Shown: positions 31,101 to 40,100 of the stretch, in pieces
Position numbering within the stretch: the stretch's first letter is position 1
Layout: every line of letters begins with the position of its first letter
Assembly (NCBI GenBank): GCA_963727485.1
Contig: CAVSGM010000001.1
Location: 896,001-960,000, forward strand
Length of the DNA stretch: 64,000 nt
Reading direction: 5' to 3'
Origin: an uncultured delta proteobacterium
Lineage (GTDB): Bacteria > Myxococcota > Myxococcia > SLRQ01
Program-made: the position numbers

Positions 31101-34100
31101 GCCGGCTTGAAGCGGCAGGGCTACGTCGTGGACTACCACCACCAGGGCTCCTCGGTGGCGGAGGCCAGCTTCCACAAGGGCCGCGGCGACGGCTCCTGGC
31201 ATGTGGCGTTCTCCACCGAGAAGTACAACCGGGCGCTGCGTCGGCCAGGGCACGTCTCGCCCGTGAAGCCCGAGGTCGAGCCGCTGGCCGAGACGAAAGC
31301 GCCTGGCACGAGCGCAGACATTCCGGGCGCTTGGCCGCGAGCTCCCACGGAGGGCGAGCCCATGTACTTCGGCGACGAGGTGGACATGCCCTCGACCGCA
31401 CCTCTCGCAGGATTGGATGTTACGAGGCCAGCAGCGGCTGGTGGTCACGCTGGGCGAGAAGAAGAAGGGCTTCCTACGCCGCGCCCTCGTCGCTGGCCGC
31501 CGGAAGTTGAAGCTCCTGGCCGCAGACCAGAAGGCGAGCTGGTTCTTCTGACCTGACACCGCTGCCCGGCTGGAGGCTCTCGCACACCAAGCACAGCAGC
31601 CAGCGCTGCTCGTGTACGGTGCCAATGGCGCCAAGGGAGAGCTGGAGGGAAGCGGCTCCATCAGCAAGGTTTACCTGGAAGACAAGCCTTCACCAACGAC
31701 CAGTTCAAGCTCGCCTACGAGCAGGCGCTGGCCAAGGCCGGCTGGACCATTGGCGACAAGAAGAAGGAGCAGGGCTTTCTCGATGCCCACTACGGACAAG
31801 AATGGTCGGGACATTTGGATCGCCTGTACCGGAGCGGGCACCCCACCTTCACGGTCTCCGACGTTGGACTAGCCTCAAGGCGGCCCTGGCCAAGGGCTGC
31901 AAGGTGCCCGTGTACGGCGTGAACTTCGACTTCAACAAGGCGACGCTACGCCCCGATGCCAAGCCGGTGCTGGAGCAGGTCCTGGCGCTGTTCAAGGACG
32001 ACCGGGCCCTGAAGGTCGGATCGGTGGGCACACTTCTACTATCGTGGGATAGCGTCCCGATGATTCTTGAGCGCACGGACTTGAGGTCGGGCTGACGACG
32101 CTGGGTACCGTTGGGCACGAGATACAGGGTCGCGAGGGTTGGCCGCCCCCGGAGCCGCTGTCGCGGGCGGCCCCCGAGAGGCCGAGCGCATCTCGACGTC
32201 GCCGATGGTCACCGGCTCGAGCGCCGCGTAGTCCGTGCGCCGCCACTTGAGGTGCGACAGCTTGCGGAGCTCCGGCGCCTCGGCCTCCACCAGCAGCTTC
32301 AGCGCCTCGAGCACCACCCGGCGCTGCTGGTCGGCGCGGCCCTTCTCACCGGTCGCATGCCCGAAGGGAAAGCGCACGAAGGCCACCCGGGGCGGGTTCG
32401 CCTTCAGCGAGTAGGCCTCGGAGATCGAGAGGGTCACCGTGGGAATCCCCACGGCCTCGATGGATTGGGCGACCAGACCGGCCGTCAGGTTGCACGTGCC
32501 TCAGGCAGGCACCAGGAGCACCGCGTCCACCGCGGCGCCCTGCATCAGGCCGGCGACCTCGGGGCCGGTCTGGTACTCCATGCGCCGCAGCTCCTTGTCC
32601 TCCACGTGGCCCATGAGGCCCGCGGCCACGGGGGCCAGGGAGCCGACCACGCCCTCGTCGACCAGCTCGCGGACGCGGCTGACCGGGAGCACCAGGTCCA
32701 GGTCCTCCCGGGCGTCGGTGGGGTCGTACCAGTCGTGGGTGATCTCGTACTCGGCGGGGAGCCGCGAGACGTCGAGCTCGCGCCAGCTCCCGTCGCCCTG
32801 GGGCGAGTCCGCCTGGCGCTTGAAGGGCGGCTGGTCCGGGTGGTGCACGCCCCCGGTGGTCACCAGCCCCAGGCGGACCTCGGACAGGGGCTTCGTCAGA
32901 TGGGCGAAGGGTGGGGCGTCGCGTTCTTCGTGCGACCGGGCCCACATGCGCTCGGTGACCGGCACGTTCACGAAGGCCCAACGGATGAGACGCTCGAACA
33001 TCGTGCCCGCTGTTATAGGGCGGAGCGAGCGCGGATCCACCCCGGATTCCGCACGATCCGGCCCGGGTTCCCCTCGCGCCCGCGACGCTCGCCAGTGGGC
33101 GACGGCCGTGGCAGACTCCTCGGCGATGCGACGGGGGGTGCCACGATGAAGGTCGTCGCGGGCGTGATGGCCGTGCTCCTGGCGGGCCTGGGGATCGTCT
33201 TCCTCGCCGGGAACCAGGGCCTCGTGGGGCGCATCGTCCTCGGGGCCGTGCTCCTGGTGGCCGCGGTGGTGCTCCTGGTGGTCATGCGCCTGCGGCCCCA
33301 GGTCACCGAGCGCAACATCGTCCAGAAGATTCGACGTCTCCGGCCGGATCGAGGCCAAGGCCCTGACCTGCCAGAAGTGCGGCGCCACCCTCGACGAGTC
33401 GTCGGTGAGCGTGAAGGCCGGCGCCATCTTCGTCGACTGTCCCTACTGCAAGCAGAGCTACCAGCTCGAGGAGGCGCCCAAGTGGTAGCCGACGTCCTCT
33501 CCCGCGCGGCCCGGGCCGTGCGCTCCGATCTCTCCGGCTTCGCCGCGGCGCTGGGCGGCGGCAAGGGCACCGGCCCCGCTCCCGGTCTCCACACCTACGA
33601 CTTCGAGGGGAACGGCGGGCGCACCCGGCTCCACCTGCGCGCCCAGCCCGACGGCACCGGGCTCCTCTTCGTCGACGTCACCGACGTCCTCCACCTCTCG
33701 GGCGCCGCGACCATGCTCGCCTGGCTCGCCCTGGAGGACGTGCCCGAGGCGCGCGCCCTGGCCACCCTGGCGCGGCGGTACCGGGGCCGCACCCGCGGCG
33801 AGCTGGCCGCGGACTACCGGCGGATGCGCGAGGTGGTGGCGAGCCTGGCCAGCCCGGGCGAGGGCTGCCGCACCTGCCAGCTCGACCTCCCCAAGACCCC
33901 CCTCTTCGCCACCCGGGCCCAGGCGCCCCACAAGGTCGACCTGGCGCTCACCTACGCCTGCAACAACGACTGCCCCCACTGCTACAACGAGCCCTCGCGC
34001 TTCGATCTCGACTCCCTCGACGCCGCCGGCTGGCGGCGCGTCCTCGACCAGCTTGCGAGCGTCGGCGTCCCCCAGGTCGATCTTCACCGGCGGCGAGGCG

Positions 34101-37100: not shown

Positions 37101-40100
37101 CTCACCGCCGGGGCCGTGGTCCTGTTCATCTTCGCGCCGCGGATGCAGCTGTGGCTCGTCGTCCCCTGGGTCGTGGCCCTGGTGCTCATGGAGTGGGCGC
37201 TGCGCCGCAAGCGCCGGGACTACCTCCCGCCCATCGTCAACGTCGAGGGCGGGGGCATCAAGCGCGGGCTCACGGCGCCCGAGGCCGCGGCGCTCCTCGA
37301 GGTGCCGCTGGGCAAGCTGGTGACCCTGGTGGTCTTCGGCCTCCTGAAGAAGGGCGTGCTGGTCTCCAAGCAGACCGAGCCCCTGGTGCTCGAGGTCGCC
37401 GAGGCGTTCCGGGGCCAGAGCCCCACGGCGAGGCGCAAGGCCGCGTCCCAGGCCGGCGTGGTCCTCCAGAAGTACGAGAACGCCTTCATCGACGAGGTGG
37501 AGAAGCACGCGGGGAAGCCGGTCACCGAGATGGACTTCTCGGACGCGGTGAAGGGGCTCCTCGATGCCGCCACCTCGCGGGTCAGCGGCTTCGACGTCAG
37601 CGACACCAAGGCCTACTACAAGAAGATCGTGGAGCGGGCGTGGAAGATGGCCGAGGACCTCGGGCCCATCGACCAGCGCACGAAGGCCGTGGACAAGAAC
37701 CTCGAGTGGCTGCTCATCGACCACGGCTACCAGCGCCGCTTCGACCACTGGGGCACCAGCGGGTTCCTCTATGCGCCCCTGTGGATCCGCTCCCCGGGCA
37801 GCGCCATCGGCCCGGTGGGCACCGCGCCCTCCGGGGGCTCGGGGTCGTCCGCGCCGAGCTTCGGCGACGTCTCCGGCTCCTTTGCCGGCTGGACCCAGAA
37901 CGTCACCGCGGGCATCGCCGGGGCCATCCTCCCCGGCGCCGTGACCGCGCCGAGCGCCAGCGGCGGGGTCATCAACCTCTCGGGCTTCGACCACGCCACC
38001 GCCGACGTCTTCCAGGCCATGGCCGCCTCGGGCTCGAGCTCCGGGGGCGGCTCCGGGGGCGGGTGCGCCTGCGCCTGCGCCGGGTGCGCCTGTGCCTGCG
38101 CCTGTGCCGGGGGCGGGGTGTGACCGCGGCGGACCTCCCGTCGCCAGAGGCCCTCGAGGCCCAGGCGGCGCGGCTGGCGGGGATGCGCAGCCGGCTCCTC
38201 CGCCAGGCCGGCGTCGCCCACCTCGGGCCGGTCCTCGATCTCGGCGCCGGCTACGGCGCGGTCACCGGCGAGCTGCGCCGGCGCGCCAAGGGGCCGGTGG
38301 TGGCCCTCGACCGGCGCCGCGAGGCCCTGGCGCACGCCGGTCCCCCGGCGGTGGCGGCGGACGCCCACGCGCTGCCGTTCAGCCGGGGCGCCTTCGCCGC
38401 GGTGTTCTGCCAACTGGTCTTCCTCTGGCTCGCCGACCTGCCCCGGGCCCTCGCCGAGATCGACCGGGTGCTGGCACCCGGCGGGACCCTCCTGGCCATC
38501 GAGCCCGACTACGGGGGCCTCGTGGAGCACCCGGCGGACCTCGCCCTCGGCGAGGTGTGGCGCGCCGCCATCGCCCGGGCCGGCGGCGATCCCCTCGCCG
38601 GACGGCACCTGGTCGCCCGCCTCGGCGAGGCCGGCTACCACGCCGAGACCCGGCTCCTCCCGAGCCTCGCCGCCCCCGACGGGACGCGCTTCGACGTCCT
38701 GGCGGGCCTGCCCCTCGAGCCCGCCGAGCGCGCCCGGGTCGACGCCGCCCGCCGCGCCGAGCAGGCCCTGCCGCCTGGCGCCGCCGTCATCCACCTCCCG
38801 TTCTTCTTCGTCCTCGCCCGCCGGCGCTGATCGGCCGCGGCCCAGGTGATATAGAGCGGCGCACATGGGATCCCGGGAAGACATCCTCTCCGGCTGGGGC
38901 GGCTACCCGAAGGCGCGCACCGAGGTGGTGCGCCCGGAGGCGGTGACCCAGCTCCCCGGCGCCTTCACCGGCGTGGGCCACGTCATCCCCCGGGGCCTCG
39001 GGCGCAGCTACGGCGACGCCGCCTTCGCCGGCGACGGGCGCACGGTGCTCACCGGCCGCCTCGACCGCATCCTCGAGCTCGACGAGGACGCCGCCGAGAT
39101 CGAGGTGGAGGCGGGGTTGCGCCTCGACGCCCTCATCCGCTTCCTGGTGCCGCGGGGCCTGTTCCCCGCGGTGGTCCCGGGGACCTCCCAGGTGACCCTC
39201 GGCGGGCTGGTCGCCTGCGACGTCCACGGGAAGAACCACCACGTCGCCGGCGCCACCTCCCGCCACGTCCTCGAGCTGGGCCTGGTGCTCCCGAGCGGCG
39301 AGCGGGTCACCGTCAGCCGCACCGAGGACCCCGAGCTCTTCTGGGCGACGCTGGGGGGCATGGGCCTCACCGGCATCGTGGAGCGGGTGCGCCTGAAGCT
39401 CGAGCGCATCGAGAGCGCCTACTTCTCCGTGGACATCGACCGGACCGCCGACTTCGAGGAGGCCCTCGACCGGTTCCACGACTCCGACGACCAGTACACC
39501 CACTCGGTCGCCTGGATCGACGCCCTGGCCCGGGGCCGGCACCTGGGGCGCGGGGTGCTGCTGCGGGGCAACTGGCTCCCCGCCGCGGGCCTCACCGGCC
39601 GCCGCGCCCGGGACCCGCTCAAGGTCGTCCGCCGGCCCACCGCCGCGGTGCCCCTGACGCCCCCCTCGGGCCTCCTCAACACCGCGTCGATCACCGCGTT
39701 CAACACGGCCTTCTACCTCAAGAACCCGAAGCGCGCCCGGGGCCACGTCGAGGACTACGACAAGTACTTCTTCCCCCTCGACATCGTCCACGACTGGAAC
39801 CGGCTCTACGGCCCGAAGGGCTTCCTCCAGTACCAGCTGGTGATCCCCGAGGACGGCGGCCGCGAGGGGCTCCGGGAGATCCTGGAGACCAGCGCCGAGG
39901 CCCACGTGCCGAGCTTCCTCTCGGTGCTCAAGCGCTTCGGCCCCGAGGAGGCCGACCAGCTCCTCTCGTTCCCCATGGCCGGCTACACCTACACCCTCGA
40001 CATCCCCATGGCCGGCGAGGAGACCCTGGACCTCCTCGAGCGCTTCGACCGCATGGTCCTCGACCGCGGGGGCCGGCTCTACCTCGCCAAGGACGCGCGC

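What a model noticed while it worked through the whole genome (the two positions that open the first line are those of the whole stretch)
33146..38830. SPASM / pseudo-SPASM / methyltransferase operon with a membrane protein ending in an invariant CACAGCACACACAGGGR tail
A radical SAM/SPASM gene, a SPASM protein lacking the CxxxCxxC motif, a 613-aa membrane protein of no known family and a SAM methyltransferase form one operon; the membrane protein ends in a Gly linker and a Cys-Ala repeat tail that is letter-for-letter conserved across phyla. The tail is likely a RiPP-like core that the SPASM pair cross-links or loads with metal clusters and the methyltransferase caps, while it stays on a membrane anchor. 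This would be a new post-translational system whose precursor is a large membrane protein, spread over Chloroflexota, Planctomycetota, Armatimonadota and Myxococcota.
Evidence so far: g00824 has no Pfam row and no NCBIfam match; 484 homologs. The tail residues C597-G612 are invariant in 26 of 26 aligned proteins that are 45-53% identical overall. Of 80 loci, 72 show the tail, 59 have the SPASM homolog, 52 the pseudo-SPASM and 49 the methyltransferase. g00823 has no CxxxCxxC. Searches for the motif and the system found 0 papers.
(Added by a program. Inside this text positions count along the whole contig: contig position 896,001 is position 1 of the stretch shown here. "Call 12" and the like, gene names such as g00115 and contig names such as C1 are that model's own, and its searches are not shown. 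The text may have been shortened before it was handed on; [...] marks where a part breaks off. The agent that wrote the report below was given it as the finding of a first reader that could run no searches.)

Follow-up and report, generated by a model that had tools for sequence, protein, structure and literature searches.

The report
Radical-SAM maturation of membrane-protein Cys-Ala tail
Five linked genes pair a large membrane protein that ends in a strongly conserved cysteine-alanine tail with its own iron-sulfur enzyme, which is predicted to grip the protein just inside the membrane and likely rewrites the tail chemically, a likely protein-modification system found in many bacteria and some archaea and not yet tested at the bench.

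Summary
The operon is real and has a fifth gene, a small zinc-ribbon membrane protein. The three frameshifts are absent from short-read contigs of close relatives. The tail is conserved as protein, not as DNA. It is not letter-for-letter: this copy ends GGGV and distant members shift the Gly. In 201 Anaerolineae-class genomes the membrane protein and the radical SAM enzyme occur in the same 29; the methyltransferase is in those 29 plus 1, the zinc-ribbon protein in 28. The enzyme folds like SkfB/SuiB/CteB with an RRE. A predicted complex of homologues scores 0.84 against 0.02 (mark reached by 116 of 157 solved, 2 of 215 mismatched pairs); the RRE pairs with YLPP..EGGG after the last membrane helix, about 280 residues before the tail. 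The scaffold is a remote DUF2207/TIGR04222 relative. A sister cassette has a (Cys-His-Ser-Ala)n tail and its own enzyme. The dead paralogue is optional. The chemistry is untested; Cys thioether cross-links are my best guess. I found no paper; this scan has noted the system before on other DNA.

The parts
33146..33488 (+).
   Evidence: in 52 of 80 loci; in 28 of the 29 carrier genomes and in no other of 201; extra base absent in contigs of 4 of 4 runs
33482..35005 (+). RRE + radical SAM + SPASM enzyme; frameshifted at 34078 and 34192/3 in this assembly
   Evidence: homologue model pLDDT 89, best folds SkfB, SuiB, CteB; the two indels are absent in contigs of 3 of 4 runs each
33581..33855 (+). 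N-terminal RRE-like domain (four strands, three helices), approximate limits
   Evidence: the sister enzymes pass the Pfam PqqD cut-off (2 of 2 tested)
33959..33982 (+). CxxxCxxC motif (CNNDCPHC)
   Evidence: sequence; invariant in 39 of 39 aligned homologues
34999..36285 (+). Pseudo-enzyme: full-length paralogue of the enzyme with the CxxxCxxC loop deleted and the GGE motif lost; keeps the RRE-like domain and CxxCx5Cx3C
   Evidence: hhalign 100% over 401 columns; 0 of 57 have CxxxCxxC, 54 of 57 keep CxxCx5Cx3C
36282..38123 (+). 613-aa membrane protein: signal peptide, outer Ost1/aminopeptidase-N-like beta sandwich (28-222), three membrane helices (241-309), inner GOLPH3/Vps74-like helical domain (about 329-543), Gly/Ser linker, Cys-Ala tail
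   Evidence: Ost1 Z 14.9, rmsd 2.8, 179 aligned; GOLPH3 Z 8.4, rmsd 3.8, 161 aligned; topology inferred from hydropathy and charge
37221..37256 (+). YLPPIVNVEGGG (residues 314-325): conserved, disordered when folded alone, predicted docking strand for the enzyme's RRE
   Evidence: (pLDDT under 50 at 311-323)
38064..38120 (+). Tail CACACAGCACACACAGGGV (seven Cys), likely substrate
38120..38830 (+). Class I SAM methyltransferase specific to this cassette
   Evidence: Methyltransf_11 E 1.6e-17; in all 29 carrier genomes plus 1 of 201

Best explanation
This is a five-gene cassette in which the radical SAM/SPASM enzyme is predicted to dock through its RRE on the YLPP..EGGG strand just inside the membrane and likely oxidises the protein's own C-terminal Cys-Ala tail into several short Cys thioether cross-links, the modified tail likely staying on the membrane protein. 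Inferred steps: (1) The RRE adds the juxtamembrane strand to its sheet, as RREs do with leader peptides, so leader and core are separated by a folded domain of about 280 residues. (2) The Gly/Ser linker lets the tail enter the barrel; the 5'-deoxyadenosyl radical takes an H from a small residue next to a Cys, most likely the Ala/Gly before it, and a SPASM cluster holds the thiol for C-S bond formation. (3) The methyltransferase caps the free C-terminal carboxyl or a leftover thiol. (4) The pseudo-enzyme is an optional, non-catalytic second reader or holder of the substrate. (5) The zinc-ribbon membrane protein is a fixed partner of unknown role. The mature protein most likely links an outer sensing domain to a rigid, metal-binding or signalling tail in the cytoplasm; that last step is the weakest.
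For: Shown: the membrane protein (E under 1e-40) and the enzyme (E under 1e-130) occur in the same 29 of 201 genomes, one being the centre genome, and in the same 5 of 41 relatives of this genome. 10 of 10 genomes whose locus lacked the enzyme hold it elsewhere, one as a partial match. A search for the tail DNA alone found only this family: 63 of 63 tail ORFs of 200 aa or more, and the enzyme lay within the flanks in 25 of 27 well-flanked loci. Pairwise identities of enzyme and tail-less membrane protein correlate, rho 0.73 over 85 loci, kin not independent. A sister cassette has a homologous scaffold (hhalign 99.5%), a (CHSA)n tail and its own enzyme clade (12 of 12, support 100). One genome of this family holds the Cys-Ala, the CHSA and a TIGR04222 cassette, each with its own enzyme. 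The residue before Cys is Ala, Gly or Ser for 99% of Cys in the Cys-Ala tails and Ala for 94% in the CHSA tails. No protease or exporter was among the core recurrent families of 80 loci. Predicted: best folds of the enzyme are SkfB, SuiB and CteB over 390-467 columns. Complex of the L032 enzyme with residues 303-619 of its membrane protein: score 0.84, best of 3 controls 0.02; the mark was reached by 116 of 157 solved and 2 of 215 mismatched pairs (counts hold only roughly here); runs agree in at least 70% of contacts, partner pLDDT 71-73. The best contacts join enzyme residues 42-52 and 109-113 with 310-315; tail residues 601-607, 612, 614 and 616-619 also touch, and barrel and SPASM residues are in the interface. 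Precedents in print: adjacent-residue S-Calpha ring in enteropeptin (PMC12395415, passages), C-terminal Cys31-Gly34 link in streptosactin (PMC8172795, passages), C-terminal carboxyl methylation by LahSB (PMC11285071, passages).
Against: No product, mass or activity exists. RRE-leader complexes such as SuiB-SuiA are solved, so the pass may come from likeness; none of the 25 best contact pairs involves the tail; the sister enzyme was not used as a control; the proteins folded were a homologue pair, not the window's. The enzyme is no closer to a thioether-forming family than to others (best NCBIfam PqqE 126 bits, all far under cut-off). It has eight conserved SPASM-region Cys, so an open iron site for the thiol is not shown. 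One metagenome locus (L133) has a tailed protein with no cassette gene in 8 kb upstream and 5 kb downstream; its genome could not be checked. Tail-less paralogues sit beside the enzyme in L047, L066 and L067. TIGR04222 tails were predicted to lie in the periplasm (PMC12452194), unlike my cytoplasmic call, which rests on hydropathy and charge (173 of 181 with net +2 or more just after the helices). The LahSB hit (E 1.4e-18) covers only the SAM-binding part and ranks third.
Confidence: 0.5

Rival explanations
1. Same docking, different chemistry: the enzyme turns each X-Cys into a 5-thiooxazole (or a related Cys heterocycle), as an oxygen-free counterpart of the MNIO enzymes that sit beside TIGR04222 proteins, giving a poly-heterocycle metal chelator; the methyltransferase S-methylates it.
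For: The scaffold is related to TIGR04222 (sister proteins up to 38 bits against a cut-off of 43). Bufferins use Cys-derived thiooxazoles to bind copper (PMC12452194, passages). NCBIfam names a radical SAM thio(seleno)oxazole maturase, SbtM, which is the best hit of the enzyme beside a TIGR04222 gene in G008 (123 bits, cut-off 350). The small residue before Cys fits this ring too.
Against: The enzyme of this cassette scores only 66 bits on SbtM, 23rd of the 25 rows shown. Its best folds are thioether and cross-linking enzymes. I could not read the SbtM paper; its chemistry is recalled.
Confidence: 0.2
2. The tail is not covalently changed: it is a metallothionein-like or Fe-S-binding segment, and the enzyme and pseudo-enzyme load or read a metal cluster on it.
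For: CxC repeats and the Cys/His sister tail look like metal-thiolate ligands (inference). The pseudo-enzyme keeps four cluster Cys in 54 of 57. The zinc-ribbon partner is constant.
Against: The Ala and Gly spacers are as fixed as the Cys. The SAM-cleaving motif is kept in the enzyme while the pseudo-enzyme is optional. Each tail type has its own enzyme clade. The model puts tail residues against the barrel.
Confidence: 0.13
3. The enzyme epimerises alternate Ala residues or does another non-thioether radical reaction (for example Cys to formylglycine or C-terminal decarboxylation), giving a D/L-alternating tail.
For: Period-2 pattern of the tail; radical SAM epimerases with large leaders are known (PoyD, recalled). 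The C-terminus is fixed at GGG plus one residue.
Against: The sister tail has period 4 and shares only the Ala-Cys pair. Cys are as invariant as Ala.
Confidence: 0.1
4. The modified tail is cut off and acts as a free peptide; the membrane protein is only a large leader.
For: A Gly-rich linker precedes the tail, and many RiPPs use proteases encoded elsewhere (established knowledge). HxsA is cleaved during maturation (PMC13128918, abstract and passages).
Against: No recurrent protease or exporter among the core genes. The outer domain and helices are conserved over the whole length, more than a disposable leader needs.
Confidence: 0.07

Closest known systems
TIGR04222 membrane proteins beside MNIO (DUF692) enzymes (PMC12452194; passages read)
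   Same: Membrane protein with a Ser/Gly-rich, Cys-bearing C-terminal tail proposed as substrate of a neighbouring metalloenzyme; remote homology of the inner domain through the sister proteins.
   Different: Here the enzyme is an RRE-radical SAM/SPASM, not an MNIO; there is a signal peptide and a DUF2207-like outer domain; the tail is a fixed Cys-Ala repeat predicted to be cytoplasmic; a methyltransferase, a zinc-ribbon protein and a dead paralogue come with it; the link to the enzyme was complete in the genomes searched, whereas a third of TIGR04222 genomes lack an MNIO.
RRE-radical SAM/SPASM peptide maturases SkfB, SuiB, CteB (sactipeptide, streptide, ranthipeptide)
   Same: Domain order and fold; CxxxCxxC and SPASM cysteines; predicted strand-addition binding by the RRE.
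   Different: The substrate is a 613-aa integral membrane protein, with docking strand and core about 280 residues apart; no short precursor, protease or exporter recurs; no curated model reaches its cut-off.
HXS anti-phage system, HxsABCD (PMC13128918; abstract and passages read)
   Same: Radical SAM proteins plus a small protein mature a repeat-bearing envelope protein that works as a whole protein.
   Different: HxsA has His-Xaa-Ser repeats, is cleaved and exported, and both enzymes need their first cluster; here the repeat is Cys-Ala, likely stays inside, and the second protein is dead and optional. No PADLOC model matches the membrane protein.
DUF2207 (PF09972 and PF20990)
   Same: Outer beta sandwich, membrane helices, inner helical domain and Gly-rich end; 3 of 86 family members hit PF20990 below cut-off; 2 of 7 sister proteins pass the PF09972 cut-off; ESM Atlas neighbours carry DUF2207 (16% of one cluster, 78-97% of another).
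   Different: The window protein has no Pfam hit; a Cys tail and a dedicated enzyme are not part of the family's description as I recall it; the one studied member affects stress tolerance in Streptococcus mutans (PMC10457818, abstract).
GeoRSP and TIGR04347 pseudo-SAM/SPASM pairs (NCBIfam names; descriptions recalled)
   Same: An active radical SAM/SPASM gene next to a paralogue that lacks the SAM cluster motif.
   Different: Scores are far under cut-off (115 of 400 and 22 of 525 bits); no membrane-protein substrate is linked to them as far as I recall.

Membership tests
RRE-radical SAM/SPASM RiPP system | CxxxCxxC radical SAM motif | tested here: met
   33959-33982; invariant in 39 of 39
RRE-radical SAM/SPASM RiPP system | SPASM domain with auxiliary-cluster cysteines | tested here: met
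   PF13186 E 6e-11; CxxCx5Cx3C in 103 of 104
RRE-radical SAM/SPASM RiPP system | RRE that binds a leader | tested here: met
   fold; binding predicted only, 0.84 against 0.02, mark reached by 116 of 157 solved and 2 of 215 mismatched pairs
RRE-radical SAM/SPASM RiPP system | Short precursor peptide gene | tested here: inconclusive
   none recurs among ORFs of 70 aa or more in 80 loci; shorter ORFs were not clustered; the tail sits on long proteins in 63 of 63 cases with enough DNA
RRE-radical SAM/SPASM RiPP system | Leader protease and exporter in the cluster | tested here: not met
   the only families in more than 14 of 81 loci are the cassette genes and their shadow frames
Sactipeptide or ranthipeptide | Cys S-to-carbon thioether in the product | not testable with these tools
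   needs mass spectrometry and NMR
DUF2207 | PF09972 or PF20990 above the curated cut-off | tested here: not met
   window protein no hit; 0 of 86 relatives over cut-off, 3 weak; 2 of 7 sister proteins over
TIGR04222-MNIO | TIGR04222 domain at 43 bits or more | tested here: not met
   window protein no hit at E 0.1; sister proteins 18-38 bits
TIGR04222-MNIO | MNIO gene in the cluster | tested here: not met
   no further recurrent family in 80 loci; DUF692 itself was not searched genome-wide
HXS system | His-Xaa-Ser repeats and two active radical SAM enzymes | tested here: not met
   tail has no His; paralogue lacks CxxxCxxC in 57 of 57; HxsC model 71-81 bits of 268 for the sister enzymes
GeoRSP / TIGR04347 pairs | Model score over cut-off | tested here: not met
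   115 of 400 and 22 of 525 bits

The most novel reading that the evidence does not exclude
A whole class of membrane-tethered, uncut RiPP-like modifications: one DUF2207/TIGR04222-type scaffold carries an internal RRE-docking strand and interchangeable Cys tails (Cys-Ala, Cys-His-Ser-Ala, Gly-Gly-Cys), each read by its own enzyme, up to three in one genome, from Myxococcota-like bacteria to Asgard archaea; the Cys-Ala enzyme would build a run of six or seven adjacent-residue rings on an intact membrane protein, capped by a methyl group, as a cytoplasmic metal or signalling switch.
Probability: 0.35. Interest if true: 0.88.

Novelty: new variant of a known kind. Interest (0 to 1): 0.72.

Why it matters
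It would extend RRE-guided peptide chemistry to intact membrane proteins, with leader and core 280 residues apart. It would give a first handle on what DUF2207/TIGR04222-type proteins do, and a testable oxygen-free counterpart to the untested TIGR04222-MNIO proposal. The cassette is common in uncultured lineages (28 of 200 drawn Anaerolineae-class genomes) and reaches Asgard archaea. An enzyme that installs many rings on a 19-residue C-terminal tag would also be a useful tool. The test is simple: the cytoplasmic fragment and the enzyme can be co-expressed in E. coli.

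Tried and rejected
DNA repeat or RNA element behind the tail: rejected, third positions are saturated. Decaying operon: rejected, all three indels are missing in short-read contigs of close relatives. Modular tag on unrelated proteins: not found; every long tail ORF was of this family, and second tails in 9 loci were tandem paralogues. Phage origin: 6 viral loci matched the pattern, none held a recognisable cassette gene; one held a cut-off family C-terminus. 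First genome scan with the single protein found nothing. No solved structure matches the membrane protein by sequence. No RNA holder listed. No PADLOC model for the membrane, pseudo-enzyme or zinc-ribbon proteins. ESM Atlas gave no named family for the zinc-ribbon protein. Direct profile comparison with a TIGR04222 fragment aligned only the low-complexity tails, so the TIGR04222 link rests on the sister proteins and is indirect. No DUF2207_C member over cut-off was found in 5 genomes for a direct comparison. The enzyme tree was the quick one, without bootstrap, on 80 of 206 rows, and does not settle whether the two dead paralogues arose once or twice. Literature: 10 searches. The motif strings returned primer-type hits in unrelated papers in the listings seen (5 of 5 and 40 of 1,670 listed), and CHSACHSAC and HSACVH had no occurrence in those 40; no listed title or abstract describes this cassette. 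Subscription papers and supplements were not searched; the Microb Genom supplement tables could list related clusters. The divergent selenoprotein gene upstream is not part of the cassette (0 of 80 loci; one of its two query pieces was in the wrong frame).

Full report
Observation. The window holds five overlapping genes on the + strand: a small membrane protein with a zinc ribbon (33146-33488), a radical SAM/SPASM enzyme (33482-35005), a paralogue without CxxxCxxC (34999-36285), a 613-aa membrane protein (36282-38123) and a class I methyltransferase (38120-38830). The membrane protein ends GGGSGGGCACACAGCACACACAGGGV. It has no Pfam match and no relevant NCBIfam match, and 484 homologues. The first two genes carry three single-base indels. 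Contigs of close relatives lack them: the one at 33330 in 4 of 4 runs, the ones at 34078 and 34192/3 in 3 of 4 each. They are very likely assembly errors. The genome has one copy of the membrane protein.

The tail. CACAGCACACACAGGG is in 118 of the 120 closest proteins; 116 end in R and 2, this one included, in V. The ranking favours tailed proteins. Among 113 more distant representatives of 480 aa or more, 108 end in a Cys-Ala tail but only 36 have the exact 16-mer; the commonest variant moves the Gly (CACACACAGCACACAGGGR), and archaeal ones read CACACACVSCACACAGGGR. The 69 tail-coding DNA stretches all differ, with 43% identity at third positions, so selection acts on the protein. A scan of metagenomes for the tail DNA alone, blind to the rest of the gene, gave 127 stretches; flanks came with 77 loci, 75 after merging duplicates. 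All 63 tail ORFs of 200 aa or more belong to this family; the other 12 are cut by contig ends.

Anatomy of the membrane protein. The model (mean pLDDT 82) has a signal helix, an outer beta sandwich like the lumenal domain of Ost1/ribophorin I (Z 14.9, rmsd 2.8, 179 aligned), three membrane helices, and an inner helical domain like GOLPH3/Vps74 (Z 8.4, rmsd 3.8, 161 aligned, a middling score). Tandem paralogues have one helix in place of three, and the eight residues after the helices carry a mean net charge of +3.8 (173 of 181 at +2 or more). I infer that the tail is cytoplasmic. Two conserved parts are disordered in the lone model: residues 311-323 (YLPPIVNVEG) and the tail.

Family. At cut-off it is neither DUF2207 nor TIGR04222. 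Weak links exist: 3 of 86 relatives hit DUF2207_C under cut-off, Atlas neighbours carry DUF2207, and the sister proteins described below pass the DUF2207 cut-off in 2 of 7 cases and reach 38 of 43 bits on TIGR04222. TIGR04222 proteins with Cys-rich tails were proposed in silico as MNIO substrates, with tails predicted in the periplasm (PMC12452194, passages).

The cassette. Of 80 genome loci, 72 show the tail, 59 the enzyme, 51 the pseudo-enzyme, 54 the methyltransferase and 52 the zinc-ribbon gene; no other real gene family recurs in more than 14. The record titles name Chloroflexota, Planctomycetota, Armatimonadota, Myxococcota, Hydrogenedentota, Nitrospirota, Elusimicrobiota and Cloacimonadota. 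In 201 genomes of the class of G005 (an Anaerolineales locus), strong matches to the membrane protein and to the enzyme fall in the same 29 genomes, G005 included; the methyltransferase is in these 29 plus G089, the zinc-ribbon protein in 28 of them. My thresholds were set in clear gaps of the score lists after seeing them. Among 41 relatives of this genome, the same 5 hold both genes. Ten genomes whose locus lacked the enzyme all hold it elsewhere, one as a partial match. Exceptions: L133 has a tailed protein alone; L130 has no enzyme in its flanks. Tail-less paralogues of the inner domain lie beside the enzyme in some Anaerolineales; 2 of 4 such genomes hold a tailed copy elsewhere, the other two are 2.5-Mb assemblies.

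The enzymes. An intact homologue (L032) folds with pLDDT 89 into a four-strand, three-helix N-terminal domain, the barrel and SPASM; its best structural matches are SkfB, SuiB and CteB over nearly the whole length. No curated model reaches its cut-off. The pseudo-enzyme is a full-length paralogue: 0 of 57 have CxxxCxxC, 54 of 57 keep CxxCx5Cx3C. A second kind of dead paralogue, nearly free of Cys (0 of 33 with either motif), replaces it in other lineages. Of 27 well-flanked metagenome loci, 5 have the first kind, 15 the second and 7 neither. The first kind went with four Cys after the Gly (37 of 37), the second with three (27 of 27), which may only reflect ancestry. The dead copy is therefore optional.

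Predicted complex. The L032 enzyme with three 4Fe-4S clusters and SAM, against residues 303-619 of its membrane protein, scored 0.84; the best of 3 controls scored 0.02. The mark was reached by 116 of 157 solved complexes and 2 of 215 mismatched pairs; these counts hold only roughly here. Runs agree in at least 70% of contacts, partner pLDDT 71-73. The surest contacts join the RRE strand VLHLS and the linker behind the RRE with PLATIE (310-315; window 317-322), which resembles the YxxPxL leader motif of lasso peptides (recalled). Tail residues also touch, and barrel and SPASM residues are in the interface, but no tail pair is among the 25 best. Similar complexes are solved, so the pass may reflect likeness; it supports binding and does not show it.

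Sister systems. Weak matches led to a second cassette. In 7 of the 9 weak-hit genomes, all 7 fetched, the protein ends in ACHSACHSAC...CVSSF-type repeats. Across the 14 stretches fetched, 10 held such a protein and 9 held it beside a distinct enzyme; a coiled-coil gene and a zinc-ribbon-like gene lay near the enzyme in the stretches whose listing I saw (part of the output was cut). The scaffolds are homologous (99.5%), the motif YxPPEIE takes the place of YLPPI, the enzymes form their own clade and carry a PqqD domain over cut-off, and these genomes lack the methyltransferase at E 1e-35. G008, of the window's own family, holds the Cys-Ala cassette, the CHSA cassette and a TIGR04222 gene ending in GGGC repeats beside a third radical SAM/SPASM gene. 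Three tails with three enzymes in one genome is what substrate-specific pairing predicts. I found the CHSA cassette before opening the scan's notes; the notes show that the Cys-Ala, Cys-His and Cys-Gly systems were all noted earlier on other DNA. They are not counted as support.

Mechanism. Shown: linkage, domain content, conservation. Predicted: RRE docking on the juxtamembrane strand. Inferred: covalent change of the tail (about 0.8 in all). The one position shared by both tail types is a small residue before each Cys. That fits an S-Calpha link to the preceding residue, as in enteropeptin (PMC12395415, passages), and also a thiooxazole, as in bufferins (PMC12452194, passages). I put thioethers at 0.5 because the nearest folds are thioether and cross-linking enzymes, thiooxazoles at 0.2, an unmodified metal site at 0.13. 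The fixed end GGG-X with X = R, V or A suggests that the methyltransferase reads the free carboxyl, as LahSB does (PMC11285071, passages; one search gives only a generic hit). HXS shows that radical SAM proteins can mature a whole envelope protein (PMC13128918, abstract and passages); nothing here points to defence.

Verdict. A real, dedicated, widespread system with no curated model and no description in the papers searched. It works like an RRE-dependent RiPP maturase acting on an intact membrane protein, but fails membership of the classical clusters (no protease or exporter), of DUF2207 and TIGR04222 (cut-offs) and of HXS. Because the tail-as-substrate idea is in print for TIGR04222-MNIO, I rate it a new variant of a known kind, interest 0.72.

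Noticed in passing
window 32042-33001 (-): PrdB-like selenoprotein gene with an in-frame TGA in a U-x-x-C motif, divergent from the cassette (TIGR04483 133 bits, cut-off 300); the genome has a tRNA-Sec.
   Followed up: partly
L228-L241, L244: Sister cassette with a (Cys-His-Ser-Ala)n tail, own RRE-radical SAM enzyme, coiled-coil protein and zinc-ribbon-like protein.
   Followed up: yes
L243 (G008:C16): TIGR04222 gene ending in GGGC repeats directly before a radical SAM/SPASM gene whose best NCBIfam hit is SbtM; the TIGR04222 match has an internal stop in this assembly.
   Followed up: partly
L047, L053, L054, L065-L067: Tail-less, about 335-aa paralogues holding only membrane helices and the inner domain, directly behind the enzyme gene; possible decoys or partners.
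   Followed up: partly
L001-L005, L035, L048, L071, L072: Two tandem tailed paralogues per locus; in the first seven the upstream copy has one membrane helix and lacks the DLSGxDxxTG segment, so that segment is not needed for the tail; L071 has a copy with a duplicated outer domain.
   Followed up: partly
L133: Tailed protein with no cassette gene within 8 kb upstream and 5 kb downstream.
   Followed up: partly
P0126: Predicted fusion of pseudo-enzyme and membrane protein (948 aa); may be a frameshift artefact.
   Followed up: no
window 26447-27950: AbiEi antitoxin-domain gene (PF09407) followed by frameshifted frames that look like its AbiEii partner (by eye).
   Followed up: no
window 30300-32100 and 43700-45400: Two stretches of lower G+C (0.68 and 0.66 against 0.73) with broken frames; the second looks like an RHS-core remnant (by eye).
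   Followed up: no
window 38865-40962: FAD-linked oxidase and short-chain dehydrogenase pair (DprE1/DprE2-like by recall) right after the cassette; not conserved beside it elsewhere.
   Followed up: no
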